Shown here in pieces: positions 21,365 through 56,057 of a stretch of DNA of 64,000 nt; within the stretch, counting starts at the first letter, position 1, and each line of letters starts with the position of its first letter. Source of the stretch: Paraspadella gotoi. Taxonomy: Eukaryota; Animalia; Chaetognatha. Location: the NCBI GenBank assembly GCA_051294375.1, contig CM119264.1, positions 8,282,873-8,346,872 of the forward strand, read 5' to 3'. The notes beneath the pieces were generated by a model that was not told the DNA's origin, ran no database searches, and saw only the letters and a program-made list of their open reading frames with translations. Both the position numbers and the translations under genes were made by a program.

Positions 21365-22119
21365 TTAAACGATCTTTTGGGGGGGCAGAAGTGGAAATGG
21401 GGGCGTTGTGGGGTGCGGACTCACTGGGGTTGGGAGGTCAAAATCACTGGCCCAGTGAGGAAGGTGGCAAATGCCAATTTTGCCTTCTTTTAACGACGAA
21501 GACTGGTCTCCGTCGTCTAAACTGAAATGTTTTTTTAAAAAATTCCTCCTTTTCCAAGGGATTAACTTATCACGATCCTCCACCGAATCTCGATTATCTT
21601 CGATTTGCGGTGGTGTAAGTCTAATTCCTCTGGAGGTTTTTTTCGTTTTGTTAAAAAGTTCGCGAGTTTTTTGTTCTTTTCATCCGATTTCTTCCTTCAA
21701 TTTTTTTCTTTTGTTCTTTCAAATTTATTGTTCTTGTCTCGCGGTAGCGAGTCTAAGACGCAGTAACGAGCATGTTACTGCGTTCAGCGTCTTTCGATAT
21801 AGATCACAACCGGTTGATCTGCGGTGCTTGGTTTTCCGACAAAAGGGGCTCCCAGCCCCCTTTGTCGTTTCCGTGTCGCCGCCGCTTGCGACCGCCACCA
21901 AGTTCGTGGATGGTTTGTCGCGCGAATAATTGTTGCCGCGACAGATGTCGCGGTGATGTGATAGAGGGTGGTGTGATTTTTTTGTGAACGCCCTCGGCGG
22001 CCGCCAGCTTGTAGTCGCAACGCTGGCGGGAGCGGCGAGGACGGATTTTTGTTGACTAGTCTCTGTCTTTTTATATATTAAACAATTTGACATAAGCAAA
22101 ATAAATGGTGGGCATCCAT
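21365..22119 (-). repeat. Paralogous ORF-L/ORF-R hairpin module, type C
   Basis: MDAHHLFCLCQI...QAGGRRG...ELGGGRKRRR, with the same stem-loop series. Inverted duplicate at 26117-26890. Confidence 0.75.
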
Positions 22120-22459
22120 TTGAAGATCGAGGAAAAAACAAAGCGAGAACGGTAAAGAGAGAATACAATTTGGGATGGTAGGAAACAAGGATGAAGAATC
22201 GGAGGACTTGGTCGGGGATAAACCGGGGATCAAAGTTGGGATAAAATTTTGAAAAATGAAAAAACGGAGAATCAAAAAGGATAGACGAGAAAAGAGCAAA
22301 AAGCGTAAAGCGAGCGATAGGTAGAGATAATGCATGCGGGGATAGGTGGGGACAAGGGTGAGAAAATTGGGGAATCGGGTCGGGGATAAGTGAACATTAA
22401 AAAGGGAAATGACGAATAACGAGGATGGAATAATAAACTAAAACTACGATATATGTACA

Positions 22460-23209
22460 TGGGGGTGGGGACTCACTGGGTCGGGAGGTAAAATCATGAC
22501 CCCAGTGAGGAAGTGGCAAATGCAATTTGCCCACATTTTTTAACTGACGAGACTCTGGTCTCCGTCGCTAAACCATTAAGGTTTTTATAATTTCATCCTT
22601 TTCCAGGAGGAAGGTGTCCCGATCCCTCCACCGCGATCTCAATAATTTTCGATTTGCGGTGGAGGAAGTCTAATTCCTCCTGGAGCGAAATTTTCATTTT
22701 TTTGAAAGTATTTCAGTTTTTCTCCTTTCCTTCAGTTCTGTTTTTTAATTTTTCGTTTCTGTTTTTAAATTGATTTGCTCCTGCCTCGCACTTGCCGAGT
22801 CTCAGGCGCAGTAACGAGCAAGTTACTGCGCAGTGTCTTTCGATACAGATCAACCGGCTACCGGTTGGATCTGTGGTGCTTGGGGTGACAAAGAGGCTCC
22901 ACGCCACTTTGTTTTGTTCGCGTCCGCCGCCGCTTGCGACGGCACCAAGTGGTGCGATCGGTTGTCCGGCGGCGTAAAAAATCTTGGTTATGAGGATAAC
23001 GTGGGAGGTGGGGTAGGCTTCGGTGTAGGGGGTTTGGGTTGAGGATTGACCTCGGCGTCGACGTGAAGATTGACCTCGGCGGCCGCCAGCTTGTGCTCGC
23101 AGTGTGCTGGCGGAGCGACGAGGTCGGGTTTTGGTTGTGCATAATTTCTCCTCCGTTTGAAAATAAGACAGATTTTACATAAGCAAAATGGATCGTGGTC
23201 TTTTTCCAT
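22460..23209 (-). repeat. ORF-L/ORF-R module, type F
   Basis: MEKDHDPFCLCKICLIFK..., same hairpins. Partial inverted duplicate at 25115-25745. Confidence 0.75.
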
Positions 23210-23745
23210 TTTGCTTATATAGTTTTCTGATTAGGGAAAAAAAGATTCGAAATTTATTAAAGGAGTAGGATTAGTTTCGAAATACTAACAATAAAATAAA
23301 CTAGCGCGTCGAGTAGCCCACAAATTATTGAGGTTCGTTTATTTCATACACTTTTTCTAAGATACTTTAAGACGATAATTTCGAGCGCTAAAATGCGAAT
23401 ATGATGCAATGAGGTCCGCAAGTACTCGCAAAATCATTTGTATACAAAAATCGTTATAAAAAATTTCATTCAAAATTTTTTTTTTTCTTTTTCTTTTTTC
23501 AAGTAATTCGCAATGAGGATTAAGCAAGGAGAATTTCTCAAGAATCAAAATAAGTGAGAGACCTCTTTCTTTTAAAAAAACCCGACCAATGATTGCCTCG
23601 TCGGTTTGAGGCATCCATTGGCTATGAAAATCGAAAAATCTGGGGGATCGCCCGGCAAGCGATCCGCGGGGAAACGTTCCTAAATAGAAACGAGAACATT
23701 GAGAATCCGTAAGAAAGAATCTTTATCGATAAAGAGAGAATTCAT
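23210..23745 (-). CDS. Adenain-like (clan CE) cysteine protease, copy directly after MCP
   Basis: MNSL.IDKIL start, HW catalytic His region, IFYNDF.IQND...TCGPHCIIF catalytic Cys. Frameshifted. Confidence 0.8.
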
Positions 23746-23761
23746 GTTTCTTTTTTTTTTT

Positions 23762-24372
23762 TTAATAATCCTAAACTTAGTTCGCGATTATAATTTAGGA
23801 GCAAATTGACGCTATATTCGGCGTACACTAATATTATTAACGAAGGGTTATCGAAGAATTTTTATAGTTTTAATTCTAATCTCGAACTACAGGTCTGTCG
23901 AACATGTGTGGTCTTCGGTAAAGACTGAACCTTCCCAGTATCGAGATAATAAAATGTTAATCTTTCACGTATTCGTCGTAACTTATAGGGCACGGTATGT
24001 AGTATTAAAGAAATGTGAAACTAAAGTATAATAAGCTCTTGATAATTTCCATTTGTAAAAGTTTAAGTTTTGAATGCCGTTTTTTTCCGGGCTTTTTACT
24101 CCGTCCAAACTCAAAGAGATCGATTCCAAATCGAAATGGTTAAAATTCAAACAGAGATTTGGCGATGTCCCGGAGAAACTGACTTTGTTTACGCGGATTA
24201 TTACCGTCTCTGGACGATTAGTTTTTGATAAAATTAAATTTTCTATATAGGACGCTCTTATGACCGCTAGGGTATTACAGTGGGGTCGAACCATAGAAAA
24301 CCGGGTAGGCATCATTATTCCTCCTTTTCGGTTATTTTTTTCTCAATGTTGAGCTTTAAAGATGGTAACATA
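23762..24372 (-). pseudogene. Polinton-type double-jelly-roll major capsid protein, C-terminal half
   Basis: Across frameshifts: IENLFYQ..RPETVII..V..SFSG....F.FNHFDLESISLSLDG...AYYTL...SRLEL.Y......LIILVYAEYSVNLLLNYNREL..DY*, the typical Maverick MCP C-terminus. The 5' half is replaced by a junction at about 24372. Confidence 0.8.
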
Positions 24373-26954
24373 ATAATTTTTAATTGAGGCAATGCAAAGA
24401 CTTACTGCTGCATGCAAATATATTATTAATTAAAATTTTTTTTAAAATGTTGAATTATGAAAAAAAATACCTGTTTCCTTCGAAATGGTGTCAGCAATTT
24501 CATATAAATTGTACAATTATAATTTCAATTCGTGAGAATTTTTGATTGCCTGAATTCTAAGGTTAAGGAATGAATTTCCCACTAAAAATTATTGATCCCG
24601 TCCTGAAGTTTCGCATCCCTCGCACCCTATGGCACGATAGGGTGCTTTGATATATAGATCATCAGGTCCAAATATGAAGACCTTATATTATGAGTGTCCC
24701 TGATAGGGCTTAATCCGTCGTCTGCGTTTGTCGTTGCTTGTCCTGTCCTCGCCGGGAATTTGTTTTACTAGATTTTTTAATTGCTTATGATAAAAGTAAA
24801 ATAATTACAATCAAAACGATTAAGGCGTTTGATGTTGCTATTAATCTTTTCATGTTATTCCCGACGAGGCGTCAGGTAGGCGGGTGTTCTTGTGCACCAA
24901 AGGAGGCCTTCGTCGGAGGCGGAAACGCCAATGACAAGAATGGGGAGGACGAGGACAACGACCACGAAGACAAGGACAACGACCACGAAGACAAGGACAA
25001 CGAAGACAAGGACAACGGCGACTCCGGCTCCTCAACGGCAGAAGTAAGCTAACTCATAACTAAGTATGTGTATTAGAAGAATATTTATCTAATACTTAAA
25101 GAGAGAGGATTTCACGTCGACGCCGAGGTCATCTCACCAAAACCCTACAACGCGAAGGCTACCGCACTTCCCCACGTTATCCTGCAATCAACAGCCAAGA
25201 TTTTTAACGCCGCCGCGACAAGCGATCGCACCAACTGGTGCCGGTTCGCAAGCGGCGGCGGACGGCGAAAACACAAAGTGGGGCTGGAGCCTCTTTGTCC
25301 ACCCAGCATACAGGATAAGCCGGTAAGCGCGGTTGGATCTGTATGCGAGGAAGACAGTGGCGCAGTCACTTGGCTCGTTTACTGCGCTGAGACTCGCAAG
25401 TGGCGAGGCAAGAGCAAATCAATTTAAAACCACAAAACGAAAAATTAAAAAGCAGAACTGGAGGAAAAGGAGGAAAAAACTGAAATACTTTCAAAAAAAT
25501 GAAATTCGCTCCAGGAGGAATTAGACTTCCTGCCACGCGAAATCGAAAATTATTGAAGATCGCGGTGGAGGTCGGGACACCTTCCTCTGGAAAGGATGAA
25601 ATTAATAAAAACTTTATTTTAAGCGAACGGAGACAGAGTCTTCGTCGTTAAAAATGTGGCAAAATTGCATTTGCCACGTTCTGACTGGGGTCACGTGATT
25701 TTTACCTCCCGAGCCCCAGTGAGTCCCCCCCCATGTACATATATCCGTAGTTTATTTTTATTCGGCATCTCGTTATTGTTCGTCATTTTTCCGCTTTTTT
25801 AATGTTCACTTAATCCCCGGACCGCGATTCCGGCCAATTTTCTGCAGCCCTTTGTTCCCCACCTATCGCATGCCAATATCTCTACGCTATCGCTGCGCTT
25901 TAGCTTTTTGGCTCTTTTCTCGTCTATCTTTTCTGGATTCTCCGTTTTTCGTCGAATTTTTTCAAAATTTTTTATCCCGACCCACTTGATCCCCGTTTAT
26001 TCCGCCGACCAAGTCCTCCGATTCTCTTCGATCCTTGTTTCCTAGCCAATGCCAATTGTTATTTCTCTCCTTTAACGCGTTCTCTCGCTTTGTTTTTTTT
26101 CGCCTCGATTCTTCAAATGGAAGCCGGCACCCATTCATTTTGCTTATGTCAATGTGTTTAATATATATAAAGAAGAGATTATGTCAACAAAATCCGTCTC
26201 GCACTCCCGCCAGCATTGGCGACTACAAGCTGGCGGCCAGCCGAGGGCGTTCATCAAAAAAATCACACACCGGCTGCATCACATCACCACCGGCGAGCAT
26301 TGGTCGCGGCAACATTATTACGGCGCGACACCCATCGCACCCACTTGGTGGGGTCGCGAAGGCGGCGGCGACCACGGGAAGCGACAAAGGGGGCTGGAGC
26401 CCGCTTTTGTCGGAAAAGCCAGCACCGGCAGATGCCACCGGTTCGGATCTATATCGAAAGGACAGCTGACGCAGTTAACATGGCTCGTTACTGCGTCTTG
26501 AGCTCGCTACGCCGGAGACAAGAACAATTAAATTTGAAAGAACAAAGAAAAAATTGAAGGAAGAAAATCGATGAAAGAACAAAAAACTCGAACTTTTTAA
26601 CAAAACGAAGAAAACGCCTCCAGGAGGAATTAGACTTCCTCCACGCAAATCGAAGATAATCGAGATTGCGGTGGAGGATCGTGATATTATCGCTTGGAAA
26701 AGGAGGAATTTTTAAAAACATTTCCAGTTTTAGCGACGGAGAACCAAGTCTTCGTGTTAAAGAAGGTGGCAAATTGCATTGTGCACCTGTCGCTCACTGG
26801 GGTCAGTGATTTTGACACTTTCCCAACCCCAGTGAGTCCGCCACCCACACCGCCCCCATTTCCACTTCTGCCCACCCCAAAAGATCGTTTAATTTTTTAT
26901 TTGTCCTCTTTTTTTTTTATCCACTTATCCCGGAACCCGATTGCTCAATTTCCC

Positions 26955-31235: not shown

Positions 31236-31719
31236 TATGTTTTGCGCGCAAAAATTGTTCATCCAGCCCTTATTTTTAATTTTGTTTTAGTTTTTATTTT
31301 AATTTTAAGAATGGGCTTTTTTTTAGTTTTTTTAATAATTAAGTTTTTTAAAGTTTTTTGTTTTAAAATAAAGATTTCAAATTGTCTTTTTAAAAAGATA
31401 GATGGTGACGAGTATAGAATAAGTTCAAACAAAAGATCTTGAGAAAGAACCTCATTAATATTTGGGAGAGAGTGAGGTAATTCATATGCATATCAATGAA
31501 ACTGTCATAGAACTCTCCGTACCTTTTATGACCTGTCATAGACACATCATATTCTCATCTCTGACAGTTGATACAAACGTTCANNNNNNNNNNNNNNNNN
31601 NNNNNNNNNNNNNNNNNNNNNNNNNNNNNNNNNNNNNNNNNNNNNNNNNNNNNNNNNNNNNNNNNNNNNNNNNNNNNNNNNNNAAAGATTTCAGGTTTCA
31701 GTTTAGATTCAAGTGGCCA

Positions 31720-32093
31720 CATTCTTACGGAAATTCTCCTTTGCTTAATCCTCACTTTGCGAAATACTTGAAAAAAGAAAAAGAAAAAAAAAAAATTTTT
31801 GATTGAAATTTGTATAACGATTTTTTGGTTTACAAAATGATTTTCGGCGGTACTTGCGCACCTCATTGCATCATATTCGCATTATTTAGCGCTCGAAATA
31901 TGATCTTAAAGATATCTTAGAAAAAGTGTACTGAATAAACGAACCTCATAATTTGTGGTACTACTGTACGCCCGCTAGGGTTTATTATCTGGTTCAGTAC
32001 TCTCTCACCAAACCTCCAATCCCTACTCCCCTCTCCTACATAACATCTCCGGACACTCTTTTTTTTTCCCTAATCAGAAACTATATAAGCAAA
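31720..32093 (+). pseudogene. Protease 3' part leading into module copy A
   Basis: SYGNSPLLNPHFAKYLKK...TC.PHCIIFA..., running into LIRNYISKMEKD. Confidence 0.65.
32078..32090 (+). promoter_or_regulatory. TATA-type motif AAACTATAWAAGC shared by element genes (also about 33386, 4309, 15338)
   Basis: The same 13-mer lies 30-100 nt upstream of three unrelated ORFs. Confidence 0.55.
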
Positions 32094-32930
32094 ATGGAAA
32101 AAGACCACGATCCATTTTGCTTATGTAAAATTTGTATTTTCTTCAAACAGAAAATATGTTGAAGAAAAACCGACCTCTTCGCTCCCGCCAGCACTCGAGA
32201 GCAAAAGCTGGCGGCCGCCGAGGTCAATCTTCACGCCACTCCCTACGCCGAGGTCAATCCTCAACCCAAACCCTACGCCGAGGTCAATCCTCACGCCAAA
32301 GCCTACGCCGAGATCAATCTTCACACCAAACCCTACCCCACTCCCCACGTCACCCTCAATCGGCCCAAGATTTTTTACGCCGCCGCGACAACCGATCGCA
32401 CCAACTTGGTGCCGGTCGCAAGCGGCGGCGGACGCGAAGACAAAGGGGGCTGGAGCCCCTTTTGTCACCCCAAGGTCCACAGATCCAACCGGTAACCCGG
32501 TTGGATCTCTATCGAAAAACACTGACGCAGTAACGTCTTCGTTACTGCGTCTTAGACTCGCAAGTGCGAGACAGGAGCAAAATTATCTCCGAACTCAAAA
32601 CTCAAACTTAAAAAGGAAATAAACGAAAAAGAGGAAAAACTAAGATTTTTCAAAGACCATGAGAAATCTCTCCAGGAGGATTTAGACTTCCTCCACCGCA
32701 AATCAAAGATTATCGAGATTGCGGTGGAGGATCGGGACACCTTCCTGGAAAAGGATGAAATGTTAAAAACTTTTAAATTTAGCGACGGAGACAGAGTCTT
32801 CGTCGTTAAAAAAAGGTGGCAAAATTGCATTTGCCACCTTCCTCACTGGGCTCAGTGATTTCGACCTCCCGATCCCAGTGAGCCCCCCCCCCGTCCCTTC
32901 CACCCCCCCTCCCCCCTGTACATATATTCG
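32094..32930 (+). CDS. Long overlapping ORF (ORF-L): HxxFCLCxxC motif, Pro-rich linker, coiled coil, conserved C-terminal domain; two apparent frameshifts
   Basis: MEKDHDPFCLCKIC...SWRPPR...KGAGAPFV..DPTGNPVGS..LLRLRLASARQEQ...LQEDLDFLHRKSKIIEIAVEDRDTFLEKDE...FSDGDRVFVVK..KIAFATFLTG.SDFDLP. Many third-position synonymous differences from B copies in the C-terminal part (cgc/cgt, atc/att, acc/act, aag/aaa, gat/gac). Confidence 0.7.
32156..32533 (+). CDS. Arg-rich basic protein (ORF-R), candidate viral core/DNA-condensing protein
   Basis: MLKKNRPLRSRQH..KAGGRRG...LGAGRKRRR.RRQRGLEPLLS..GPQIQPVTRLDLYRKTLTQ*. The ATG position is conserved in paralogs, and four differences from the copy at about 55839-55892 are all synonymous in this frame. 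Confidence 0.65.
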   Translation: MLKKNRPLRSRQHSRAKAGGRRGQSSRHSLRRGQSSTQTLRRGQSSRQSLRRDQSSHQTLPHSPRHPQSAQDFLRRRDNRSHQLGAGRKRRRTRRQRGLEPLLSPQGPQIQPVTRLDLYRKTLTQ

Positions 32931-33490: not shown

Positions 33491-34317
33491 ATGTTCAGCG
33501 ATGGGACATTTCATTTGTCCGAAAAATGTCGCATAAATTTAATAAACTCGTTATATTCTTACTTCGTGATTGTTGCCAAGGGAGGTGCGTCGTGCGCCTG
33601 TTCTCGAATCTCTCTGTCGTTGGGGGAGTGGCGTAGTCTCGCGTCGGCGTTGGACAACCTGGAGGCGGAATTGGAATCGTTAGAGAATCGATTAAAGAAA
33701 CCAGAACTCGGGCTGGAACCGAAAATTCGTTTTCTCTCTCATCAAATCTCCATCGCTGTTCACGTGAATAACGTTCGCGGCAAACTGTCGCCGGTCGTTT
33801 CTCTCTGCTTTCTCGATCAAGAAGGAGCCAAGGGCGCCTGCAGAACGCAAGATTCTGGCGTTTCTCTGACTCCGAGCGAATTTCGTGCCTTGAAATTCCT
33901 CTCTAGTTCGATCACTCGTCACATTTCGGAAAACGCGATTCGAACCTTCGTGGTGCGATCGGAAAACCGCAAGAACGTGGTCTCGGACATTTTGCAGATT
34001 CTCGAGTCGTTCGTCGAAGGCAAGTCGTCCTTCGGCTTGCGACTGAATCTGGCTCTCATTAATCAGCTCGAAGAGAATGATCCCAAAGTAGATGCAGATT
34101 GACTTTCGTCTGTATGAATACGGAATATAACTGAGAATATTGCATAATTTCACAAGAAAAGATCCTGATGCCATCGCTGAAATCAGAATCTCATACGAAA
34201 GACATTTTCGCCTATCATCGCTATTATGCAAATGGGTTTTTTTGCATACGACCAACATCTTCGTCTATCCATAGGATTTTTTTTTTGCATATGACACGGA
34301 TCACTGCTTTTTTCAGC
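33491..34317 (+). CDS. Tandem PC4/p15-like (ssDNA-binding fold) protein; probably continues past the 34102 stop through a frameshift
   Basis: Two PC4-type signatures, RISLSLGEWRSL and SGVSLTPSEFRAL, each after a beta-rich stretch. TATA motif at about 33387. Confidence 0.6.
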
Positions 34318-34417
34318 NNNNNNNNNNNNNNNNNNNNNNNNNNNNNNNNNNNNNNNNNNNNNNNNNNNNNNNNNNNNNNNNNNNNNNNNNNNNNNNNNNN
34401 NNNNNNNNNNNNNNNNN

Positions 34418-37400
34418 AAGATGAAAATGATGAAATAACCATAATAGGGTTTTTTTTTGATCAAATATCGAGGGTTCTTCACGAATCTTCCAACATATCG
34501 GAAATTTTGGACGAATGTTTCGGTAGATTGATAATTGAAATCGAGGACAAGACGACCACCGGTTCGAATCTCGTTTTTTTAGAAATAGAAAAGACAGATT
34601 TGACCATTTTAAAGATTAGTTCGGCCTTTAACGTGGGTTGTTATCAAAGTTCGGAACCGGAACTGAGATCAAAACGCGCCACCATCAATTTACCCTCGAC
34701 AAAGACCCAAGATGATTGCGTCAAAATGTCAATTTTGGCTTGTTTATTTCACACCGTAGTGATAAACCCGAGCAGGCGGTCTTGCTACGAACGATATATC
34801 GAGAAAATAAATATGGGAACCTTGAAAAATCCGTTGACGATAAATGATATTTCGACTTTGGAAACCCTAAACCCAGATTTGAGCATTAACATTTACCAAT
34901 ATACTAGGAAAAAAACAAAAATGAAAAAAAATGGTCCCGCCTCATTTTTTTTCCATTTAGAATTTCGGGGAAAAATAATTTACAGGGAATAAAAATATGC
35001 AATTTGCTCTTGTTACCCAAAAAAGAAATGGAGGAAAGGCGACATTGCGTTAGCGTGATCAATTTAAGTAGACTCGTGACGTCACAATACTCTCGTCACA
35101 AAGGATCTGCTTTCGTTTGTTTAAATTGTCTTTGTTGTTGTCGATCTCAGTTTGTTTTGGAGAGACATAGGAGACTTTGCGATGAGAAGAATATCAAACA
35201 AAATATTTGTTTTCCTCTCAAAGGAACTAAATTAAAGTTTGAAAAATACTATGCCAAATTTTACCAGGATGCGGTTATTTATGCAGATTTTGAAACTCAG
35301 ACGGAAAGGAGAAATTTCGTCGAACCTCTTCCAGATCCGGAATTAACCTTTGTTCCGGAAAAAATAAAAACAAAATATCCTTGGTGTCGCTTAAAGAGCC
35401 ATTTGAATCATTTAGAAAAAAATAAAGGATGTAAAAGTTGCTCATTCGCTAAGCCATGCGTTAAAATATCTAAAAATAGTGAAATATTGGCCGAATTAAA
35501 ACCCATAGCCTTTTGTTACATAGTTTCTACCACTTTCGATCATCCCGATTACGATATTCCTAAATATTACGTGGGATTAGATGCGGGAATAAAATTCGTA
35601 GAAATGATTCGCGAAGAGATGATTAGATTAAACGAGATTCTCAATAAAAACGAAAATATGATCATGACGGAGCAGCAAGAATTTGAGTTTCAAAACTCTA
35701 CTCATTGTCACGTTTGCGGAAAACCGTTTTTAAAAGGAAATGACAAGTCGGAAATGATTAAAACTAGGGATCATAATCATATTACCGGGTTGTATAGGGG
35801 TAGTGCTCATCAAGCTTGCAACCTGGCTTACGTGAACCCGAATCGCATCTCTTTGTTATTTCACAATACCCAAAAGTTCGATGGTCATTTATTGCTAACT
35901 TCTATAGCCGAAAAAAATGCCAATTATGCCGTAAAGACCATAGCTAATTGCATTCCTAAAAGCACTCAAGAGTTTATTACTTTCGAAATCATTTTCAATT
36001 GTGATTTTTGTAAAGATAAGAAAGCGAAGGGAAAAGATCCCGAATCGAGCGACGAGAGTTCGAGCGACGATGACGACGACGATAGCGATGATAGCGACGA
36101 TGAGAAAGACGAAGGCGGTGAGCTGGAAAGGAAAACTTGATCGCGGAAAGAGAAAATATGAATAAATTGAATTGTACTTGTTACAAAATATGTAAAATTA
36201 AACTACAGGACAGTTATCGATTTCTCATCGGAGTTTACACAATCTTTTAATGGCTAGTAAAAAGATTGTTACAGTTTAATTGTAAAGATTGTCTCTACGA
36301 CGATGAACGAAGAGAGGCACTTTTGCGAAAGGTGTCGAGAAAAAAAAATCCTAAAGAGGTGTTCGAACCAGTTTTCAATTTTTTGAGAGAAAATTACGAT
36401 GAGAAATATTTCGATTTAATTATCGACGGAAAGATGTCATTTCCCTATTCCTACATTACGATGAAAGATTGAGAGAACCGGACCTTCCTTGCAAATTAGC
36501 ATTTTACGACGAATTGAATAAAAAAGGCATAACCGAAGAGGATTACGAACATACTAAAAAGATTTATCTACTTTAAAACTCAATGCTTGGGTCAGCTATT
36601 GGCCGTATATTGCATCATGGATGTTCTCATATTAATGTCGCTTATGGATGCGTTCAGACAACTTTGTCACGGATATTACGAAATAGATCCTTTGTACTAT
36701 CTGACATTACCATCCATGAGGTAAAATACACGAATATTTTTACTGGATCGTACTTACTTAACTTATCATACTTTACTACTTTTTAGCTTCGCCGTCATGT
36801 TAAAGTTTTCGGGAGTAGAAATATCTCTGTTGAGCGAACAAGAATCGCACATTTATTACGCCTTTACGAAATGTATCAGAGGTGGTTTTTCGGGTTGTAA
36901 TTACCGTAGTGGAAACCGCGATCAATAACGAATGCGGAGGAATTGACGAAGAATAGTCAAAAATGTTCGTTCAATTTATATTACGATTTTACAAACTTGT
37001 AAGTAATGATCCGAGCTCAAAACCGTAATAATAATAATAATAAAATAAAAAATATAAATACAGATACGGTTATTGTCAAACCGAATATTTTCCCACGGGC
37101 GACTTCTATTCCTTTTCCGAACCGGAGTGCCAAAACTTGTTGACCGAGATTTTGGAAAAGCGAATTTATGACACGTGGACAGGTTTCGAAAAAAAAGGGT
37201 AAGCGTTCTTCGATGAAATATTGTTTTTAAGTTTTTAACCTTTTCTCTCGATTTTCTTTCTTTCGTTTGTGTTTTATTTTTTTCTTCTTACAGATTTATA
37301 TTAGAAATTAAATATACTATTCCGGAGAAAGTAAAGATATTTTATAGCGATTATCCTTTATTAACTACTAAGAGAAAAGTTTTAAAGTCGGAACTGAGTT

Positions 37401-37537
37401 TTTTACAATTAGAACTGATTGAAAAATATAAACAAAATATCGACGCATCTCCCAGACTGATTGCCGATTTATCGGACGGAGATCATTACTTTATACATTA
37501 TATGAATCTTAAATTAGTTTTAAGCTTAGGATACGAA
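34418..37537 (+). CDS. Polinton/Maverick (adintovirus-like) protein-primed DNA polymerase B with endonuclease VII-like insert; spliced, frameshifted, C-terminus missing
   Basis: Motifs in the expected order: TTTGSNLVFLEIE...SKRATINL...DDCVKMSILACL; HCVSVINLSRL...CLNCL...LERHRRLC; ExoI YADFE; CHVCGKPF...RDHNHITGLYRGSAHQACNL (EndoVII); ExoII FHNTQKFDGHLL; DSYRF; GKMSFPYSY; ExoIII YCIMDV...IDPLYYLTLPS; CIRGGFS; motif A YYDFTNLYG; GFILE...SDYPLL; HYFIHYMNLK. The sequence stops at the N gap at 37538. Confidence 0.93.
36721..36786 (+). other. Spliceosomal intron 1 in PolB (66 nt, phase 2)
   Basis: gtaaaa...ttttag. Removal gives LTLPSM-S-FAVMLKFSGVEISLL, matching the family motif. Confidence 0.88.
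36999..37063 (+). other. Spliceosomal intron 2 in PolB (65 nt, phase 2), splitting motif A
   Basis: gtaagt...atacag. Removal gives YYDFTN-L-YGYCQ. Confidence 0.92.
37199..37293 (+). other. Spliceosomal intron 3 in PolB (95 nt, phase 2)
   Basis: gtaagc...polypyrimidine tract...ttacag. Removal gives FEKK-G-FILEIKYTIP. Confidence 0.92.
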
Positions 37538-37547
37538 NNNNNNNNNN

Positions 37548-38122
37548 ACACTAATATTATTAATGAAGGGTTATTCAAAGAATTTTTATAGTTTAATTCT
37601 AATCTCGAACTACAGGTCTGTCGNNNNNNNNNNNNNNNNNNNNNNNNNNNNNNNNNNNNNNNNNNNNNNNNNNNNNNNNNNNNNNNNNNNNNNNNNNNNN
37701 NNNNNNNNNNNNNNNNNNNNNNNNNNNNNNNNNNNNNNNNNNNNNNNNNNNNNNNNNNNNNNNNNNNNNNNNNNNNNNNNNNNNNNNNNNNNNNNNNNNN
37801 NNNNNNNNNNNNNNNNNNNNAAAGTATAATAAGCTTCTTGATAATTTCCATTTGTAAAATTTAAGTTTTGAATGCCGATTCCAAATCGAAATGGTTAAAT
37901 TCAAACAGAGATCTGGCGATGTCTCCGAGAAACTGACTTTGTTTTACTTGCGCGATTATTACCGTCTCTGGACGATAGTTTTGATAAAATAAATTTTCTA
38001 TATAGGCGCTCTTTTGACCGCTGGGTATTACGTGGGGTCGAACCATAGAAAACCGGGTAGGCATCATTATTCCTCCCTTTTCGGTTATTTTTTCTCAATG
38101 TTGAGCTTTAAAGATGGTAACA
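37548..38122 (-). pseudogene. Second copy of the MCP C-terminal fragment (gapped)
   Basis: Near-identical to 23826-24372, with the same 5' junction. Confidence 0.75.
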
Positions 38123-41789: not shown

Positions 41790-42575
41790 GTGGGGGAGTC
41801 GGGGGGGGGAAGAAGTTGGGGACGAAGTGTAAATTGGGGGGGGGGGGGGACTCACTGGGATCGGAGGTCGAAATCACTGACCCCAGTGAGGAAGGTGGCA
41901 AATGCAATTTTGACACCTTCTTTTAAGACGAAGACTCTGTCTCCGTCGCCTAAAATTAAAGGTTTTTACCACTCGTCTTTTTCAGGAGGAAAGTGTCCCA
42001 GATCCTCCACCGCGTCTCAATATATTTGATTTACGGTGGAGGAAGTCTAATTCCTCCTGGAGAGACTCTCGTTGTCTTCAAAAAATTTTTAGTTTTTTTG
42101 TCTTTCCAAGACTTTCCTTTTTTAAATTTCTCATTTTGTTTTTTAAGTGCAACTGTTTCTTGTCTCGCGCTTGCGAGTCTTTAGGCGCAGATAACGAGGC
42201 AAGTTACTGCGCCAGTGTCTTCGAATACAGATCAACCGGCTTACCGGTTGGATCTGCGGCGCCTTGGTGCGACAAAGGGGCTCCAGCCCCTTTTGTTTCG
42301 TTCGAGGTCGCCCCGCTTGCGACCTCCAGCCAAAGCTGGCGCATTGGTTGTCGCGGCGTATTAGCCGCGACCGGCATGTCGCGGCGATGGATAGTTGAGC
42401 GATGGCGGGAGAAAATGTTTTTTTGATAAAGCGGCCATCGGCGGCCGCCAAGCCCTGTGTATTCGAGTGCTGGCGGGAGCGGCGTCGTTGGGTTTTCTTA
42501 TCGACATGTTTCTCTTCGTTTATAGATTAGACATAATCGAGCATAAGCAAAATGGATAGTGAGTCTTTATCCATT
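41790..42575 (-). repeat. ORF-L/ORF-R module, type B (also 44254-44910 and 48585-49403)
   Basis: MDKDHHPFCLC...GPQIQPVSRLDLYRRTLAQ*; hairpins with variant loops. Confidence 0.75.
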
Positions 42576-43108
42576 TTGCTTATATAGTTTCTGATGAGGG
42601 GAAAAAAAGTCACAAAATTTAATTAAAGTAGTAGGATTAGATTCGAGAAGTACTAACAATAAAATAAACTAGCGCGTCGTAGTACCAAATATGAGGTTGT
42701 TTATTTCATACACTTTTTCTAAGATATCTTTAAGATCGTAATTCGAGCGCTAAAATAATGCGAATATGATGCAATGAGGTCGCGCAAGTAGCCGCAAAAT
42801 CATTTTGTAAACAAAATCGTTATAAAAAATTTCATCAAAATTTTTTTTTCTTTTTCTTTTTTCAAGTATTTCGCAAAGTGAGGATTGAGCAAAGGAGAAT
42901 TTCCGTAAGAATCAAAAATAAGTGAGAGACCTCTTCTTTTAAAAAACCCGACCAATGATGCCTCGTTTCGGTTTGAGGCATCCCATTGGCTATGAAAATC
43001 GAAAATCTGGGGATCGGCCGCAAGCGATCCGCGGAAAACGTTCCTAAAAAGAAACGAGAAACATGAGAATCCGTAAGAAAGAATCTTATCGATAAAGAGA
43101 GAATTCAT
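42576..43108 (-). CDS. Adenain-like protease, copy B1
   Basis: MNSLFIDKILSYG...HWSGF...IFDSYGNSP...YND..LQND.AATC.PHCII. Confidence 0.82.
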
Positions 43109-44910
43109 GTTTCTTTTTGTTTTTTTAAATTTATTTTATTTTATAATTTAATTTATCCATCTAGTTTTAAAGTAAACATAAACATGAACATAAATATTAA
43201 AAAACATAAAGAACATAAAAAAACAAATTAAAAAATTAACCTAAACGAGAAATAAATGCTCTAAAATCTTTTTTGCTAAAACCCCTTTTTTAAAAGAAAC
43301 AAAATTATTTGTAAGCTATGTCTTCATTTTCCTTCAAAACGCATGCAAAACACTCTGATAAGTTTTTCGGTTTGAGAAAAAAATTGAGAAAACCTGTTCA
43401 TTAAAAAAGCGACACATATTCATATGCAGAAATGCGAGAAGATCTACTACAGGTCTTACAATGATTGTGATTGCATGAGTTACAACTGCTAAATGATAAT
43501 TTTTAATTGAGGCAATGCGAAGACTTACGTGCTCATGCAAAATATTATATAATTTAATTTTTTTTAAATGTCGATTATGAAAAAAAATACCAGTTTCTTT
43601 CAAAATGGCGTCAGCAATTTCAATAATAAATTGTACACTTAATAATTTCAAATTTAAATTTTGATTGCTCTGACTTCTAAGGTTAAGTGATGAATTCCCA
43701 CTAAAAATTTATTGATCCCATCCTGAAGTCGCATCCCTTGCGCACCTATGGTGGTGCTTTTATATATATAGGTGCAATCAGGTCCAAATATGAAGACCTG
43801 ATTATGCCGAGAGAAAGTGAATAAGTTTTCCAAAAAAAATAAAGGAGTTTCTAGAGTATCTTTTCAATTCTTTCCGATTCATGTCCTTTTTTCATTTCGG
43901 ATAAAAGTTCATTTTCTTTATTTTCCGACATTTTTTTGAACTGTGGTAAAACTAAATATAAAAAAAACATAAATAAAGTATTTTAATGTGGAGTATATGG
44001 AACGAAAAATTTCTATCTAAATCTATGTTTATATTATAATTTTCGAAAGAGGGAACCACAGTTTGCCATTTAATAATTGTTTCAATAAGTCTAACAGCGG
44101 TTCTTCGTCATTATAGAATAAAAGTCACAACCGCGTAAAGTAGATTTACGTTTATAACATAGATTTCAAGAAGCACTGATTTTCAGTTTCGGACTTTAAT
44201 AATTGAAAGGTTTTACTATAAATATGATNNNNNNNNNNNNNNNNNNNNNNNNNTAACGACGAAGACTCTGTCTCCGTCGCTAAAATTAAAGGTTTTTACC
44301 ACTTCGTCTTTTTCCAGGAGGAAAGTGTCCCGATCCTCCCACCGCCGATCTCAATAATCTTGATTACGGTGGAGGAAGTCTAATTCCTCCTGGAGAGATC
44401 ATCTCGTTGTTCTTAAAATTATTTTAGTTTTTTGTCTTTCCAAGACTTTCCTTTTTTAATTTCTCATTTTGTTTTTTAAGGTGCAACTGTTCTTTGTCTC
44501 GCGCTTGCGAGTTCTTAGGCGCAGTAACGAGCAAGTTACTGCGCCAGTGTTCTTCGATACAGATCCAACCGGCTTACCGGTTGGATCTGCGGCCCTTGGT
44601 GCGACAAAAAGGGGCTCCAGCCCCTTTTGTTTCGTTCGAGGTCGCCGCCGCTTCGCGACCTCGACCACCAAAGCTGGCGCCATTGGTTGTCGCGGCTATT
44701 AGCCGCGACCGGATGTCGCCGCATGAGTAGTTGAGCGATGGCGGGAGAAGAATGTTTTTTTGATAAACGGCCATCGGCGGCCGCCAAGCCCTGTGTATTC
44801 GAGTGCTGGCGGGAGCGGCGTCGTTGGGTTTTTTTATCGACATGTTCTCTTCGTTTATAGATTAGGACATAATCGAGCATAAGCAGAAATGGATGATGGT
44901 CTTTATCCAT

Positions 44911-45460
44911 TTTGCTTATATAGTTTCTGATGAGGGGAAAAAAAGATTCCAAAATTTATTATTAAAGTAGTAGGATTAGATTCGAAAGTACTAACAATAA
45001 AATAACTAGCGCGTCGTAGTACCACCAAATTATGAGGTTTGTTTATTTCATACACTTTTTCTAAGATATCTTTTAAGATCGTAATTTCGAGCGCTAAGAA
45101 TAATGCGAATATGATGCAATGAGGTCGCCAAGTAGCCGCAAAATCATTTTGTAAACAAAAATCGTTATAAAAAATTTCATCAAAATTGTTTTTTTTCTTT
45201 TTCTTTTTTCAAGTATTCGCAAAGGTAGGATTGAGCAAAGGAGAATTTCCGTAAGAATCAAAAATAAGTGAGAGAACCTCTTTCTTTTAAAAACCCGACC
45301 AATGATCGCCTCGTTTCGGTTTGAGGCATCCATTGGCTATGAAAATCGAAAATCTGGGGGATCGGCCCGGCAAGCGATCCGCGGAAACGTTCCTAAAAAG
45401 AAACGAGAACATGAGAATCCGTAGAAAGAGAAGAATCTTATCGATAAAGAGAGAATTCAT
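44911..45460 (-). CDS. Adenain-like protease, copy B2
   Basis: FIANGCLKPKRGDHWSGF, FDSYG and YNDFCLQNDFAAT.GPHCIIF, read across indels. Confidence 0.82.
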
Positions 45461-45582
45461 GTTTCTTTTTGTTTTTTTAATTTATTTTATTTTATAATTT
45501 AATTTATCCATCTAGTTTTAAAGTAAACATAAACATGAACATAAATATAAAAACATAAGAACATAAAAAAAACAATTAAAAA

Positions 45583-46449
45583 TTAACCTAAACGAGAAAA
45601 TAAATGCTCTAAATCTTTTTTTGCTAAAACCCCTTTTTTAAAAGAAACAAAATTATTTGTAACTATGTCTTCATTTTCCTTCAAAACGCATGCAAAACAC
45701 TCTGATAAGTTTTTCGGTTTGAGAAAAAAATTGAGAAACCTGTTCATTAAAAAGCGACACATATTCATATGCAGAAATGCGAGAAGATCTACTACAGGTC
45801 TTACAATGATTGATTGCATGAGTTACAACTGCTAAATGATAATTTTTAATTGAGGCAATGCGAAGACTTACTGCTGCATGCAAAATATTATTAATTTAAT
45901 TTTTTTTAAATGTCGATTATGAAAAAAAATACCAGTTTCTTTCAAAATGGCGTCAGCAATTTCAATAATAAATTGTACACTTATAATTTCAAATTTAAAT
46001 TTTCGATTGCTCTGACTTCTAAGGTTAAGTGATGAATTCCCACTAAAAATTTATTGATCCCATCCTGAAGTTCGCATCCCTTGCACCCTATGGTGGTGCT
46101 TTTATATATAGGTCAATCAGGTCCAAATATGAAGACCTGATTATGCCGAGAAAAGTGAATAAGTTTTCCAAAAAAATAAGGAGTTTTCTAGAGTACTTTT
46201 CAATTCTTTCCGATTCATGTCCTTTTTTCATTTCGGATAAAAGTTCATTTTCTTTATTTTCCGACATTTTTTTGAAACTGTTGGTAAAACTTAAAATATA
46301 AAAAAACTAAATAAAGTATTTATAGTGGAGTATATGGAACGAAAAGAAATTCTATCTAAATCTATGTTATATTATAATTTTTCGAAAGAGGGAACCAGAT
46401 TTGCCATTTTAATAATTTTTTCATAAGTCTTAACTACGGTTTCGTCCAT
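45583..46449 (-). CDS. Element-borne hypothetical protein X (about 290 aa, CxGC and HCxxC motifs), upstream of the protease; copies at 43234-44110 and 50115-51040, partial at 24373-24690 and 38123-38410
   Basis: Read across indels: MDETVVKTYEKII...MSENKENELLSEM...SYLDLIDLYIK...GCKGCELQDGINKFLVGIHH...AINHCKTCSR...LEHLFSRLG*. Confidence 0.55.
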
Positions 46450-46561
46450 TATAGAATAAAAGTCACAACCGCGTAAATAGATTACGTTTATTACATAGAT
46501 TTCAAGAAGCACTGATTTTCAGTTTCGGACTTTAATAATTGAAAGGTTTTACTAATAATAT

Positions 46562-47430
46562 ATGATTCCCATTTTGATTGTCATAATATAATCAAAGAAA
46601 AAGTTTGCGAATGTCGCACGTCGCATCTGTTTAAAGATGTAGAAAAAGTAATAAGATCATTAATACCAAAAAAATGTATACATGTGGATGATGATCACAA
46701 TAACTTCTATTATAAAAAAGTTATGGAGAAATATCCAGATCCGGTTGAAATACCAATTCATGGTTTGAACTTTGATTATGCCACATTTGAATGAGATAAT
46801 ACTAATTTTTTTAGATGGAGAACAAAATGGAAGATGATGAGATTAAAACTTTTAAAACTCAGTTTAACATCACTTGTGAAAATTACTTGGTCATGTCGAA
46901 CATAATTCAATTCATTATTTTCATGGAAATCTACACAATGTGCGAAGATCACAATTGCAAAAAATGTTACAGGAGGGGTCCAATTATGGAATTTTTGGTG
47001 ACGAATCAACAGCTCATTTTAGAGTACAAAGAATTAAGACGAATGGGACTGATCACAAATTTCGAGGAATTAATGAAGAAGTTCGATGAAAGAATGAGAC
47101 AAGATCTCCCTCCCTTTGACGATCCATCATATAAAAAACATTTTATTAACGGTCTTATTTTTTTATTAATTTCTCTAAAGTCAAATAAAATGAAATTAAA
47201 TAACATAACGGAATTAACCGGTACTTTTTCAAAATCTATCAAATTACCCAAATCTGCAAAAATCTTATAAGCAATTAATCATTTTTCTATTTTACCTAGA
47301 ATCGAAAATGTTATCGATGATGCATTAATGTTTAGAATCTAAATTTACATACTTGTCAAAAATTATTCTAAAAAAATAAATGAAATTGTAAAGGAAAGAG
47401 AGCGGAATCTTTTTTCACCTACCGCGATGA
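46562..47430 (+). CDS. Element-borne hypothetical protein Y, divergent from X; noisy copy at 51160-52110
   Basis: Includes the 151-aa ORF at 46815-47270 (CEDHNCKKC motif) with frameshifted extensions on both sides. Confidence 0.55.
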
Positions 47431-47479
47431 CGGTGTACAGTATACTTTTAATGAATAACATTGTAATTTTATTTCAGCA

Positions 47480-48332
47480 ATGGTCGATCTTTTTCTCACG
47501 AAACCTATTGACTTATCAATTAACTCGGAAACTAGAGAGGATCTGCCCCTCGATCTATCGATAAACTTTAATCCCATTAATTCACCTCTTTCGCACGATC
47601 GTTCGAACCTAAGTACACCGGGACGACGACGACCTCGAGAGAGACGACGACGACGACGAAGAATCGACCTTGAGCGACGAAAACTTTTTTTTGGAGTTGG
47701 CCGGTCCTTCGACTAGGAAAAAAAAAACTACTACTGCGAATGAACCCTTGTCCTCGCACATCGATCAAATGGGAGGGTGAAAAAGAAAAATGGAACCGAT
47801 GAAAGAAAAAATGGGTTTTTTGAGGAAGACTTTTCCATAGAAACAAAAAAATATCAAAAAAACTTAATTCAAAACATTCAATTTAAATATAAAAAAACGA
47901 ATTATCGAAAAATTGAGATTATCATATACAAATATCTTTGCTCAAAGCTCAAATGCTCACAAGCTTGAAAATATTTGGTTAAATATTAGATGTTAAAGTT
48001 TCACACAAACTTTTTGTGAAATTTCAAAAAGATGAAAATGATGAAATAACCATAATAGGTTTTTTTTGATCAAAGTCGAGGGTTTCTTCACGAATCTTCC
48101 AACATATCGGAAATTTTGGACGAATGTTTCGGTAGATTGATAATTGAAATCGAGGACAAGACGACCACCGGTTCGAATTCGTTTTTTTAGAAATAGAAAA
48201 GACAGATTTGACCATTTTAAAGAACCAGAACTGAGATCAAAACGCGCCACCATCAATTTGCCCTCGACAAAGACTCAAGATGATTGCGTCAAAATGTCAA
48301 TTTTGGCTTGTTTATTTCACTCCAAACTTTAA
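47480..48332 (+). CDS. PolB-precursor N-terminal region: PxDLS x2 leader, acidic tract, QMGG, then the PolB N-terminal domain; truncated. Copy at 52187-53100
   Basis: PIDLS and PLDLS. Using the B3 reading (ccgga) it continues PDDDDLERDDDDDEE...AGPSTRKKK...DQMGG. 48027-48320 matches 34418-34752 with a deletion of about 39 nt. Confidence 0.65.
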
Positions 48333-49403: not shown

Positions 49404-49990
49404 TTGCTTATATATTTCTCGAATGAGGGGAAAAAAAGATTCAAAGAATTATATTAAAGGTAGTAGGATTACGAGTTTCCGAAAGTACTAATCAATAATA
49501 AAACTAGCGCGTCGTAAGTTACCGACAAATTATGAGGTTTGTGGTTATTTCAGTAACACTTTTTCTAAGATAGTCTTTTAAGATCGTAATTTCGCAGCGC
49601 TAAGAGTAATGCGAATATGATGGCAAAAGTGAGGTCCGCAAGTAGCGCGCAAGAATCATTGTTGTAAACAAAAATCGTTATAAAAAATTTCATTCAACAA
49701 TTTTTTTTTCTTTTCTTTTTTCAATAATTTCGCAAAGTGAGGATTGAGCAAAGGAGAGATTTCCGTAAGTAATCAAGAAATAAGTGAGAGATCCTCTTTC
49801 TTATAAAAAACCCTGCCAATGATCGCCTCGTTTCGGTTTGAGGCATCCTATCTTGCTGATCGAAAATCGAAAAAATCTGGGGGAATCGGCCGGGCAAGGC
49901 GATCCGCGGGAAAACGTTCGCTAAAAGAAACGAGATACATTGAGAAATCCGTTAGAGAAGAATCTTATCGACTAAAGCGAGAATTCAAAT
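49404..49990 (-). pseudogene. Adenain-like protease, noisy copy B3
   Basis: Indel-rich duplicate of 44911-45460. Confidence 0.65.
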
Positions 49991-56045: not shown

Positions 56046-56057
56046 ACCCGGTATATA

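What the first reader, a model, noticed from the sequence alone, without database searches (positions are those of the whole stretch)
32085..32882. Multicopy viral coding module packed with about nine covarying stem-loops
Seen in copy A: ATAAGCAAAATGGA/TCCATTTTGCTTAT (32085-32124); GACAAAGGGGGCT/AGCCCCTTTTGTC (32439-32466); AGATCCAACCGG/CCGGTTGGATCT (32481-32508); GACGCAGTAACG/CGTTACTGCGTC (32524-32551); CTCGCA/TGCGAG; a nested stem of about 79 nt (32671-32749); a 15-bp stem (32778-32810); AAGGTGGCAAA/TTTGCCACCTT; and CTCACTGGG/CCCAGTGAG. Diverged paralogs keep the stems, vary the loops and show double compensatory changes: GGCGCAGTAAC..GTTACTGCGCC (44518-44545) and GACGCAGTAATG..CATTACTGCGTC (59200-59227). 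The four non-Watson-Crick pairs I found in copy A are G.U on the sense strand and would be A.C on the other strand. Inference: a selected RNA (or one-strand ssDNA) structure overlaid on two reading frames. It could control translation, yield small RNAs, or act as a packaging/replication signal. I do not recognise it as a described Polinton feature.
Basis: partly seen in the sequence, partly recalled or inferred. Interest (0 to 1): 0.85.

Follow-up and report, generated by a model that had tools for sequence, protein, structure and literature searches.

The report
Hairpin-packed bicistronic Polinton core gene
In remnants of a Polinton-like DNA virus integrated in a likely animal genome, a small arginine-rich gene and an overlapping second frame with no start codon carry about ten conserved hairpins, one of which likely makes ribosomes slip from the first frame into the second, an untested recoding that our literature searches did not find for such a gene.

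Summary
The hairpins are real. All listed stems are at the stated coordinates. Folding beats dinucleotide shuffles (z -13.6) and synonymous-codon shuffles (z -10.3), while neighbouring genes score about 0. Copy A matches short-read contigs letter for letter.

'Covarying' is overstated: double-sided changes are no more than shuffles give (8 of 115 pairs; 144/500). The signal is frozen third codon positions in stems (15/57 vary versus 35/54 outside, p 6e-5) and G.U over A.C inside helices (10 versus 2), which favours sense-strand RNA. The first hairpin (32085-32124) straddles a TATA box and a likely start site, so it is probably a DNA-level promoter repeat.

The module lies between an adenain-like protease remnant and PC4-like and pPolB genes. 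It holds ORF1 (125 aa, 22% Arg) and an AUG-less coiled-coil ORF2 in the -1 frame. ORF1's stop lies inside a 12-bp stem that begins 5 nt after CGA-AAR. Best reading: a -1 frameshift makes an extended core protein (0.4).

Against it: the shift site is not a canonical heptamer, ORF2 is frame-broken in both families whose length short reads fix, and there is no expression evidence. No homologs were found. Interest 0.62.

The parts
31684..31935 (+). 3' remnant of an adenain-like protease (PRO) gene
   Evidence: Nucleotide match to paralogous copies that hit a PRO profile built from related Polinton loci: 23541-23621 E 5.4e-5, 42865-43104 E 0.0019. No Pfam or PDB hit. AATAAA at 31934.
32082..32124 (+). 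TATA box (32082-32088), initiator-like CCATTTT (32112-32118) and a 14-bp inverted repeat (H0) across them; likely a DNA-level operator
   Evidence: The same CTATATAAGC precedes the 33491 gene without the repeat; the repeat follows it, whole or nearly so, at the five module-type sites. Promoter consensus recalled.
32156..32533 (+). ORF1, 125 aa, 22% Arg, net charge +28; likely a DNA-condensing core protein
   Evidence: Intact also in copy I (78 aa, 26% Arg). 18 of 20 gapped contig pieces listed have gap totals divisible by 3 (table 8). No homologs.
32216..32336 (+). 30-nt x4 in-frame repeat expansion in ORF1 of copy A; unstructured
   Evidence: z +0.6 for 32147-32379 under the codon null.
32371..32377 (+). 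U_UUU_UUA heptamer in the ORF1 frame (copies A and C only)
   Evidence: only heptamer in ORF1 of A; none in I; alignment.
32378..32432 (+). Variable hairpin upstream of H1; differently paired in different families
   Evidence: z -3.4 in A, -4.5 in G (three other hairpins), -3.6 in J, -2.0 in I.
32439..32466 (+). H1, 12-bp stem with a G.U pair
32481..32508 (+). H2, 12-bp stem, 4-nt loop
32513..32518 (+). CGA-AA(A/G) in the ORF1 frame, 5 nt before H3; candidate non-canonical -1 shift site
   Evidence: CGAAAR in 7 of 11 copies, TGAAAG in J, garbled in D, F, G. No variant at 32513-32517 among the 40 rows shown (6 hidden), A>G at 32518.
32524..32551 (+). H3, 12-bp stem (-19.6 kcal/mol) holding the ORF1 stop in its 5' arm; candidate stimulator
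32533..32858 (+). ORF2, about 109 codons, -1 frame relative to ORF1, no AUG in copy A; frame-broken near 32608-32612 in this copy
   Evidence: The break is present in short-read contigs of three runs. Model of the part after the break: helix 2-50, beta-hairpin 54-71, mean pLDDT 75.5, pTM 0.37. No homologs or fold match.
32557..32570 (+). H4, 5-bp stem
32643..32749 (+). H5 (32643-32669, weak) and H6 (32671-32749, nested stem with internal loop)
32778..32882 (+). H7 (15 bp), H8 (11 bp), H9 (spans the ORF2 stop); no AATAAA or ATTAAA between 32858 and 33500
33491..34102 (+). Intact 203-aa ORF, PC4-like (lead only)
   Evidence: ESM Atlas first hit 0.86, PF02229; third hit a Preplasmiviricota cluster; recognition value below the tool's bar. 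No PC4 hit in Pfam.
34444..37618 (+). Protein-primed DNA polymerase B, in several frames
   Evidence: 65 hits at about 24-38% identity, some with PF03175 or PF02945, named ones from cnidarians and insects; mapped by tblastn.
21370..26890 (.). Copies B (21370-22160, -), C (22430-23240, -), D (25100-25770, +), E (26080-26890, +); B-C and D-E form an inverted pair
41800..49420 (-). Copies F (41800-42600), G (44254-44940), H (48585-49420), each downstream of a PRO remnant
55158..64000 (-). Copies I (55580-56100), J (58770-59463), K (62340-62960), L (63805-64000, partial) and a fragment at 55158-55325; all lack H7-H9

Best explanation
The module is a two-frame gene of a Polinton-like virus whose sense strand keeps about ten hairpins under selection, likely as mRNA structure, and hairpin H3 likely stimulates a -1 ribosomal frameshift so that a minority of ribosomes would extend the arginine-rich ORF1 protein with the ORF2 coiled coil. 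Steps: (1) TATA/initiator transcription from about 32114 (inferred from motifs). (2) Most ribosomes make ORF1, a protamine-like, pVII- or Mu-like DNA-condensing core protein (frame and composition shown; role inferred). (3) With CGA-AAR in the decoding sites, the 12-bp H3 stands 5 nt downstream and hides the ORF1 stop (geometry shown). A -1 slip enters ORF2, which has no AUG of its own (slip inferred). (4) The fusion is a minor DNA-binding plus coiled-coil isoform made at a fixed ratio (inferred). (5) The other hairpins likely pace ribosomes or bind the basic product as feedback (inferred, weakest step). The copies seen today are partly decayed.
For: Structure is not explained by coding: z -10.3 under synonymous shuffles, neighbours about 0. 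Third positions vary in 15 of 57 stem sites and 35 of 54 unpaired sites, p 6e-5. Internal G.U pairs number 10, internal A.C 2. Families re-pair the variable region differently yet stay folded. ORF1 is intact in A and I, and its indels are mostly multiples of 3 in short-read contigs. ORF2 has no AUG in A or I. The codon overlapping the stop is ACT or ACA in 7 of 11 copies, which are poor starts, and the H3 loop keeps its length across families, so ribosomes likely enter ORF2 at or before H3. A 5-9 nt spacer is typical of 3' stimulators, and CGA_AAG is a known -1 site in Bacillus cdd and IS1222 (PMC5009743, passages). The -1 frame is open along all of ORF1 in A, which 3.6% of 2000 codon shuffles achieve.
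Against: CGA-AAR is not an X_XXY_YYZ heptamer, and the cited passage calls this class low-level and describes it mainly in bacteria. The canonical U_UUU_UUA occurs only in A and C. ORF2 is out of frame between H4 and the SLQ motif in both families whose length short reads fix (122 and 124 letters, table 5). In the noisy window copies only 6 of 11 stop-to-SLQ distances keep the frame (p 0.12). An open -1 frame over the last 55 codons is common by chance (10% in A, 33% in I). Covariation is not above shuffles. A frameshift needs one hairpin, not ten. The minus strand also beats the nulls (z -8.2 and -11.75). ORF1 has no strict adenain site and no homolog. No capsid, ATPase or integrase hit was found in the window.
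Confidence: 0.4

Rival explanations
1. The hairpins act together as an mRNA-wide element: binding sites for the Arg-rich ORF1 product (feedback on its own synthesis), or signals for export, stability or poly(A)-free 3' end formation. How ORF2 is reached is then a separate matter.
For: About ten stems are spread through both ORFs. ORF2 stems are as constrained as ORF1 stems (9/32 vs 19/33 third positions vary, p 0.024). There is no AATAAA or ATTAAA after ORF2, although the PRO remnant has one. The start codon of A lies in a hairpin loop.
Against: The stems share no common loop sequence. It does not explain an AUG-less conserved second frame. Copies I, J, K and L lack H7-H9.
Confidence: 0.25
2. 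Stop-restart: ribosomes end ORF1 at UAA and reinitiate at the overlapping -1 codon or a nearby CUG, as in influenza B M1/BM2 (UAAUG), giving a separate ORF2 protein.
For: Copy J reads UAAUG, and a short-read contig carries the J-type letters. A, I and K have ACG there. A CTG in the ORF2 frame is conserved in the 3' arm of H3.
Against: 7 of 11 copies have ACT or ACA. UGGGA (TURBS motif 1 core; PMC3035654, passages) lies within 90 nt upstream in 1 of 11 copies, an error-rich one. That paper describes the BM2 signal as largely unstructured. The ATG in J is a CpG-type change in a copy whose ORF1 has a premature stop.
Confidence: 0.17
3. The cluster was taken over by the host: a local family of virus-derived protamine-like genes or non-coding RNAs in which ORF1 and the hairpins are kept and ORF2 is decaying.
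For: Copy A is identical in contigs of three runs from three samples. Summed depth of all families is only about 3-9 times that of copy A, so copies are few and most families lie in this window (the tool warns that depth is no copy number). ORF2 is broken where ORF1 is whole.
Against: The copies sit among broken PRO and pPolB fragments in a rearranged region. J has a stop in ORF1. One contig family has several stem-breaking changes and another deletes 115 letters. The 20-30% divergence with coding-type conservation fits divergence among active viral lineages equally well.
Confidence: 0.1
4. The stems work as small-RNA precursors or as single-stranded DNA signals during strand-displacement replication or packaging.
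For: Both strands fold far better than shuffles. H6 is 79 nt long.
Against: The stems are 11-15 bp, short for Dicer or Drosha (recalled), and H6 has a 9x9 internal loop. The best Rfam score is 26.7 bits against a gathering score of 100. No B box on either strand, and 7 runs of 4 or more T on the sense strand. The module is internal, not terminal. The DNA strands fold equally while the wobble bias points along the transcript.
Confidence: 0.07
5. Assembly artefact or chance.
For: The window has 20 N gaps and most copies carry many single-base indels. B/E and C/D are inverted duplicates and may be one locus each.
Against: Copy A and at least five other families appear in short-read contigs of several runs. 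All nulls are beaten.
Confidence: 0.01

Closest known systems
Polintons/Mavericks (adintoviruses) of animals
   Same: pPolB related to cnidarian and insect Polinton polymerases and an adenain-like protease, two of the genes that PMC8097293 lists (passages).
   Different: No capsid, ATPase or integrase hit in this window. None of 91 related loci (24 of them 8 kb or longer) gave a hit to ORF1/ORF2 beyond one 14-residue match at E 0.006. 88 of 91 have at most 2 such stems per 500 nt against 6 here; of the three exceptions, L003 was read and is a symmetric palindromic repeat array, L002 has the same spacing, and L011 was not read.
Adenovirus core proteins pVII and pX/Mu
   Same: Small, highly basic, Arg-rich (pVII 23% Arg, mimics protamine; PMC7998265, passages; ORF1 22-26%), encoded in an element with an adenain-family protease.
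   Different: No sequence similarity found. The strict (M/I/L)XGG-X or XGX-G site is absent from A and I, which have one GG each. No frameshift extension is known to me (recalled).
-1 programmed frameshift signals: HIV-type U_UUU_UUA plus stem-loop; CGA_AAG hexamer of Bacillus cdd and IS1222
   Same: Overlapping -1 ORF without AUG, a 5-nt spacer and a stable stem-loop (PMC5009743, passages).
   Different: The shared site is the hexamer, in a likely animal DNA virus; the heptamer is confined to two copies; nine further stems surround it.
Predicted -1 frameshifts in adintovirus Penton and Hexon-Adenain (PMC11071296)
   Same: Proposes hidden virion-protein isoforms by -1 slippage, and a class of coiled-coil 'Cah' proteins (passages).
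   Different: Those are KnotInFrame predictions on capsid genes; 'hairpin' does not occur in its main text.
UAAUG termination-reinitiation (influenza B BM2; CHV1)
   Same: Identical overlap in copy J (PMC3035654 passages, PMC2699510 search listing).
   Different: Not conserved in the other 10 copies; no motif 1; heavily structured.

Membership tests
Polinton/adintovirus | Protein-primed PolB | tested here: met
Polinton/adintovirus | Adenain-like protease | tested here: met
   Profile hits E 5.4e-5 and 0.0019 on broken copies; weak, with no Pfam or PDB hit.
Polinton/adintovirus | Retroviral-like integrase | tested here: inconclusive
   No profile hit; a degraded integrase-like reading upstream of PRO was seen by eye only.
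Polinton/adintovirus | Major and minor capsid proteins, packaging ATPase | tested here: inconclusive
   No hit better than E 0.15 from the profiles taken, by their first residues, to be these genes; only 64 kb of a gapped assembly could be searched.
Polinton/adintovirus | Terminal inverted repeats and target-site duplication | not tested
   Element ends were not defined in this rearranged region.
Adenovirus pVII/pX-like core protein | Small, Arg-rich, strongly basic | tested here: met
Adenovirus pVII/pX-like core protein | Adenain consensus cleavage site | tested here: not met
   No strict site in A or I; one GG in each.
Adenovirus pVII/pX-like core protein | Sequence homology | tested here: not met
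Canonical -1 PRF signal | X_XXY_YYZ heptamer in the zero frame, conserved | tested here: not met
   One in A (also C by alignment), none in I.
Canonical -1 PRF signal | 3' structure 5-9 nt after the shift site | tested here: met
   H3 begins 5 nt after CGA-AAR.
Canonical -1 PRF signal | Open, conserved -1 frame downstream | tested here: inconclusive
   Coding-type conservation on both sides, but broken in both accurately measured families.
Canonical -1 PRF signal | Transframe product made | not testable with these tools
   Needs a reporter or proteomics.
TURBS termination-reinitiation | Stop and AUG overlapping or adjacent | tested here: not met
   1 of 11 copies.
TURBS termination-reinitiation | UGGGA motif 1 upstream | tested here: not met
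   1 of 11, in an error-rich copy.
Described RNA family (Rfam; miRNA precursor; VA-RNA-like Pol III gene) | Covariance-model match or A/B boxes | tested here: not met

The most novel reading that the evidence does not exclude
An animal Polinton-like virus makes two forms of its DNA-condensing core protein from one hairpin-tiled mRNA, using a hexamer (CGA-AAR) -1 frameshift of the kind described in bacteria, with the arginine-rich product binding the hairpins to set the ratio. This would be a self-regulating recoding switch in a class of DNA viruses where none has been shown.
Probability: 0.2. Interest if true: 0.82.

Novelty: new variant of a known kind. Interest (0 to 1): 0.62.

Why it matters
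Polinton particles and their gene expression are almost unstudied, and in the passages I read recoding has only been predicted for capsid genes (PMC11071296). This locus gives a compact, testable candidate: a likely core-protein gene with a conserved second frame that cannot be reached by normal initiation, and a stem placed where a stimulator would be. A 150-nt reporter would settle it. If the hexamer site works on animal ribosomes, heptamer-based scans of DNA-virus genomes miss a class of signals. Even without the frameshift, a coding region tiled with selected hairpins is unusual for these elements: 88 of 91 related loci have at most 2 such stems per 500 nt against 6 here.

Tried and rejected
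No whole genome is held.

Homologs: a DNA pattern for H2 found 0 stretches in viral contigs. ORF1 had no relative in viral contigs or among proteins of 70-224 aa (the query carried three extra residues before the ATG; longer and shorter lengths were not searched). The window's pPolB fragment had no relative in viral contigs. ORF2 after the break gave one hit among 1.84 billion proteins, a repetitive 2084-aa protein that I judge spurious, no Atlas hit and no fold match with E <= 0.001 among viral structures (PDB not searched). Rfam gave nothing near threshold. Three look-ups in earlier findings were empty.

Expression: no RNA holder listed. Run X8 is only guessed to be RNA and was not used as evidence.

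Splicing from the GTAA in the H2 loop or in H3 into ORF2 was rejected by eye: no conserved in-frame acceptor, and copy J lacks the GT. An upstream AUG at 32123 as the ORF2 start was rejected: TAA follows it in A and C. U_UUU_UUA as the general site was rejected: A and C only, and the stem 7 nt downstream is no better than shuffles (z -0.35). A Pol III gene was rejected. The alignment of ORF2 fragments was too patchy to use.

Literature searches that found no description of this feature: (open-licence library only). PMC9790413 passages gave nothing of use. No supplementary files were read. Covariation on error-free full copies remains untested.
Full report
1. OBSERVATION. I label them H0 (32085-32124), H1 (32439-32466), H2 (32481-32508), H3 (32524-32551), H4 (32557-32570), H6 (32671-32749), H7 (32778-32810), H8 (32813-32840) and H9 (32842-32882); folding adds a weak H5 and a variable hairpin at 32378-32432. 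The stretch 32380-32890 folds at -219.7 kcal/mol against -135.6+/-6.2 for dinucleotide shuffles (z -13.56; minus strand z -11.75). Against shuffles that keep both proteins and their codon usage, z is -10.3 (0 of 60; minus strand -8.2), while four segments of the neighbouring genes give -1.3 to +0.5 and the 5' part of ORF1 gives +0.6. None of the 35 150-nt windows from 32951 to 38800 falls below -1.7 (my count). The structure is real, local and not a by-product of coding.

2. COPIES AND ACCURACY. The window holds 11 long copies and two fragments; copy A is 67-80% identical to the others over the core, errors included. Most copies carry many single-base indels, and the window has 20 N gaps. Copy A is accurate: short-read contigs match it with no difference over 32061-32438 and 32364-32807, and in three of four runs over 32400-32711 (these may include the source of the assembly). 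At least five other families appear in the same runs. Their summed depth is about 3-9 times that of copy A, so this is a small family largely gathered here (depth is no proper copy number). B/E and C/D may each be one locus assembled twice (inference).

3. COVARIATION IS NOT SHOWN; CONSERVATION IS. On the 11-copy alignment 86.6% of cells pair, but only 8 of 115 pairs change on both sides, against 6.4+/-1.9 in shuffles (144/500), and the covariation score is reached by 90/500. RNAalifold on 7 of the 11 copies finds 3 of 48 such pairs and a covariation penalty. The change quoted at 44518 (A-T to G-C in H3) is real. The one at 59200 is two CpG-type transitions; copies I and K carry only one of them, and J also has a stop in ORF1, so decay explains it as well as selection does. 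The positive evidence is different. Counting only letters seen in copy A or in two or more copies, third codon positions vary at 15 of 57 stem sites and 35 of 54 unpaired sites (Fisher p 6e-5, not corrected for relatedness). G.U occurs at 12 pairs (10 internal) and A.C at 6 (2 internal), which points to the sense strand. In the variable region G, I and J form hairpins that pair differently from A's. H0 is a separate matter: it overlaps TATATAA (32082-32088) and an initiator-like CCATTTT (32112-32118), so a transcript starting near 32114 would lack its 5' arm. The same TATA motif precedes the 33491 gene without the repeat. I read H0 as a promoter operator (inference; consensus motifs recalled).

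4. CONTEXT. Downstream lie an intact PC4-like ORF (lead only) and a pPolB about 30% identical to Polinton polymerases, the named ones from cnidarians and insects. Upstream lies the end of an adenain-like protease; paralogous copies hit a profile built from related Polinton loci at E 5.4e-5 and 0.0019. No capsid, ATPase or integrase hit was found in the window. The element is Polinton-like, fragmentary and rearranged; an animal host is inferred from these relatives.

5. THE TWO FRAMES. ORF1 runs from 32156 to 32533: 125 aa, 22% Arg, net charge +28; copy I gives 78 aa with 26% Arg and the same C-terminal 20 residues but for an insertion. In short-read contigs 18 of 20 gapped pieces listed have gap totals divisible by 3 (table 8; the same families recur across runs, and 28 pieces are hidden). 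The composition recalls adenovirus pVII and Mu (PMC7998265, passages), but no strict protease site and no homolog was found. ORF2 lies in the -1 frame, overlaps the ORF1 stop and ends at 32858. The part after its break models as a long helix and a beta-hairpin with a low-confidence Cys/His tail and has no homolog or fold match. It has no AUG in A or I. It is frame-broken near 32608-32612 in copy A, and the break is genuine; a second short-read family is also out of frame over the same stretch. In the noisy copies 6 of 11 distances keep the frame (p 0.12). A whole ORF2 is therefore inferred, not seen.

6. MECHANISM. The ORF1 stop lies in the 5' arm of H3 (-19.6 kcal/mol). H3 starts 5 nt after CGA-AA(A/G), which reads so in 7 of 11 copies; no variant is listed at 32513-32517 in short reads, although neighbouring third positions vary (6 rows hidden). 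A 5-9 nt spacer is the usual geometry of a -1 stimulator, and CGA_AAG is a known low-level -1 site in Bacillus cdd and IS1222 (PMC5009743, passages). The codon overlapping the stop is ATG in 1 copy, ACG in 3 and ACT or ACA in 7, and UGGGA is missing in 10 of 11, which argues against stop-restart of the influenza B type (PMC3035654, passages). The H3 loop varies in sequence but not in length across families, as expected if it is read in frame. I therefore favour a -1 frameshift giving a minor ORF1-ORF2 fusion (0.4). Shown: structure, frames, geometry. Inferred: transcription, the core-protein role, the slip and the role of the other stems. The weak points are the non-canonical site, the broken ORF2, and the fact that one stem would suffice. 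The main rival is an mRNA-wide element bound by the basic product or forming the 3' end (0.25; there is no poly(A) hexamer after ORF2). The others are stop-restart (0.17), host domestication (0.1) and small-RNA or ssDNA roles (0.07).

7. COMPARISON AND NOVELTY. Rfam has no match near threshold. Of 91 loci with related polymerases (24 of them 8 kb or longer, so most do not show the whole gene set), 88 have at most 2 comparable stems per 500 nt against 6 in copy A. Of the three exceptions, L003 is a strand-symmetric palindromic repeat array, L002 has the same spacing, and L011 was not read. PMC11071296 predicts -1 slippage in adintovirus Penton and Hexon-Adenain genes and defines a coiled-coil 'Cah' class, but its main text does not contain 'hairpin' (passages). 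PMC8502044 and PMC8097293 (passages) describe no such gene in what I saw. Six searches of an open-licence library found no description; supplements were not read, and those of PMC11071296 could hold a relative. It works like a frameshift-controlled two-isoform structural gene but fails the membership test for a canonical heptamer signal. I rate it a new variant of a known kind.

8. VERDICT. Observation partly confirmed, interpretation partly supported. Interest 0.62: a real, undescribed and cheaply testable structured coding RNA in a poorly studied virus group, held back by the lack of significant covariation, of relatives, of expression data and of an intact ORF2.

Noticed in passing
window 53389-53637 and about 48350-48550: GC-rich imperfect 18/39/54-nt repeats with self-complementary units; 53501-53650 has the lowest folding z in the scan (-8.8) and reads as a Thr/Ser/Ala/Pro repeat in one frame.
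   Followed up: partly
window 33491-34102: Intact 203-aa ORF with its own TATA motif between the module and pPolB; Atlas look-alikes are PC4-family clusters, including a Preplasmiviricota one. It may have two PC4-like repeats (by eye, motif recalled).
   Followed up: partly
window 32085-32124; also after the TATA motifs at 23222, 28810, 42587, 44923 (- strand) and in copy K: Inverted repeat across the core promoter with a variable spacer; copy K has one compensated pair. Candidate binding site for a dimeric regulator.
   Followed up: partly
window 32137-32168: 10-bp hairpin with the ORF1 ATG in its loop, and a minimal ATG-TAA at 32123-32128, in copy A; not obviously shared by all families.
   Followed up: partly
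window 28766-29181 (- strand): PRO end plus TATA/H0 with no hairpin module behind it, ending at an N gap.
   Followed up: no
window 43100-44200 and 45480-46560 (- strand): Degraded reading upstream of PRO that looks integrase-like by eye but gave no profile or Pfam hit.
   Followed up: partly
window 46815-47270: Intact 151-aa ORF with a CxxxxCxxC motif and no Pfam hit; a broken copy lies near 51400-51900.
   Followed up: no
window 58900-59120: Copy J has an insertion of about 200 nt, Gln-rich when read, followed by a second start of the H4-coiled-coil stretch of I/K type.
   Followed up: no
L002:11574-11935 and L003:5707-6068: Array of odd-centred perfect palindromes of several unit types in two Polinton-like viral contigs; strand-symmetric, unlike the module here.
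   Followed up: partly
L011:17449-20428: 13-bp palindromes recurring at about 289-nt spacing.
   Followed up: no
window 31087-31223: 39-nt tandem repeat, 3.5 copies, just before an N gap.
   Followed up: no
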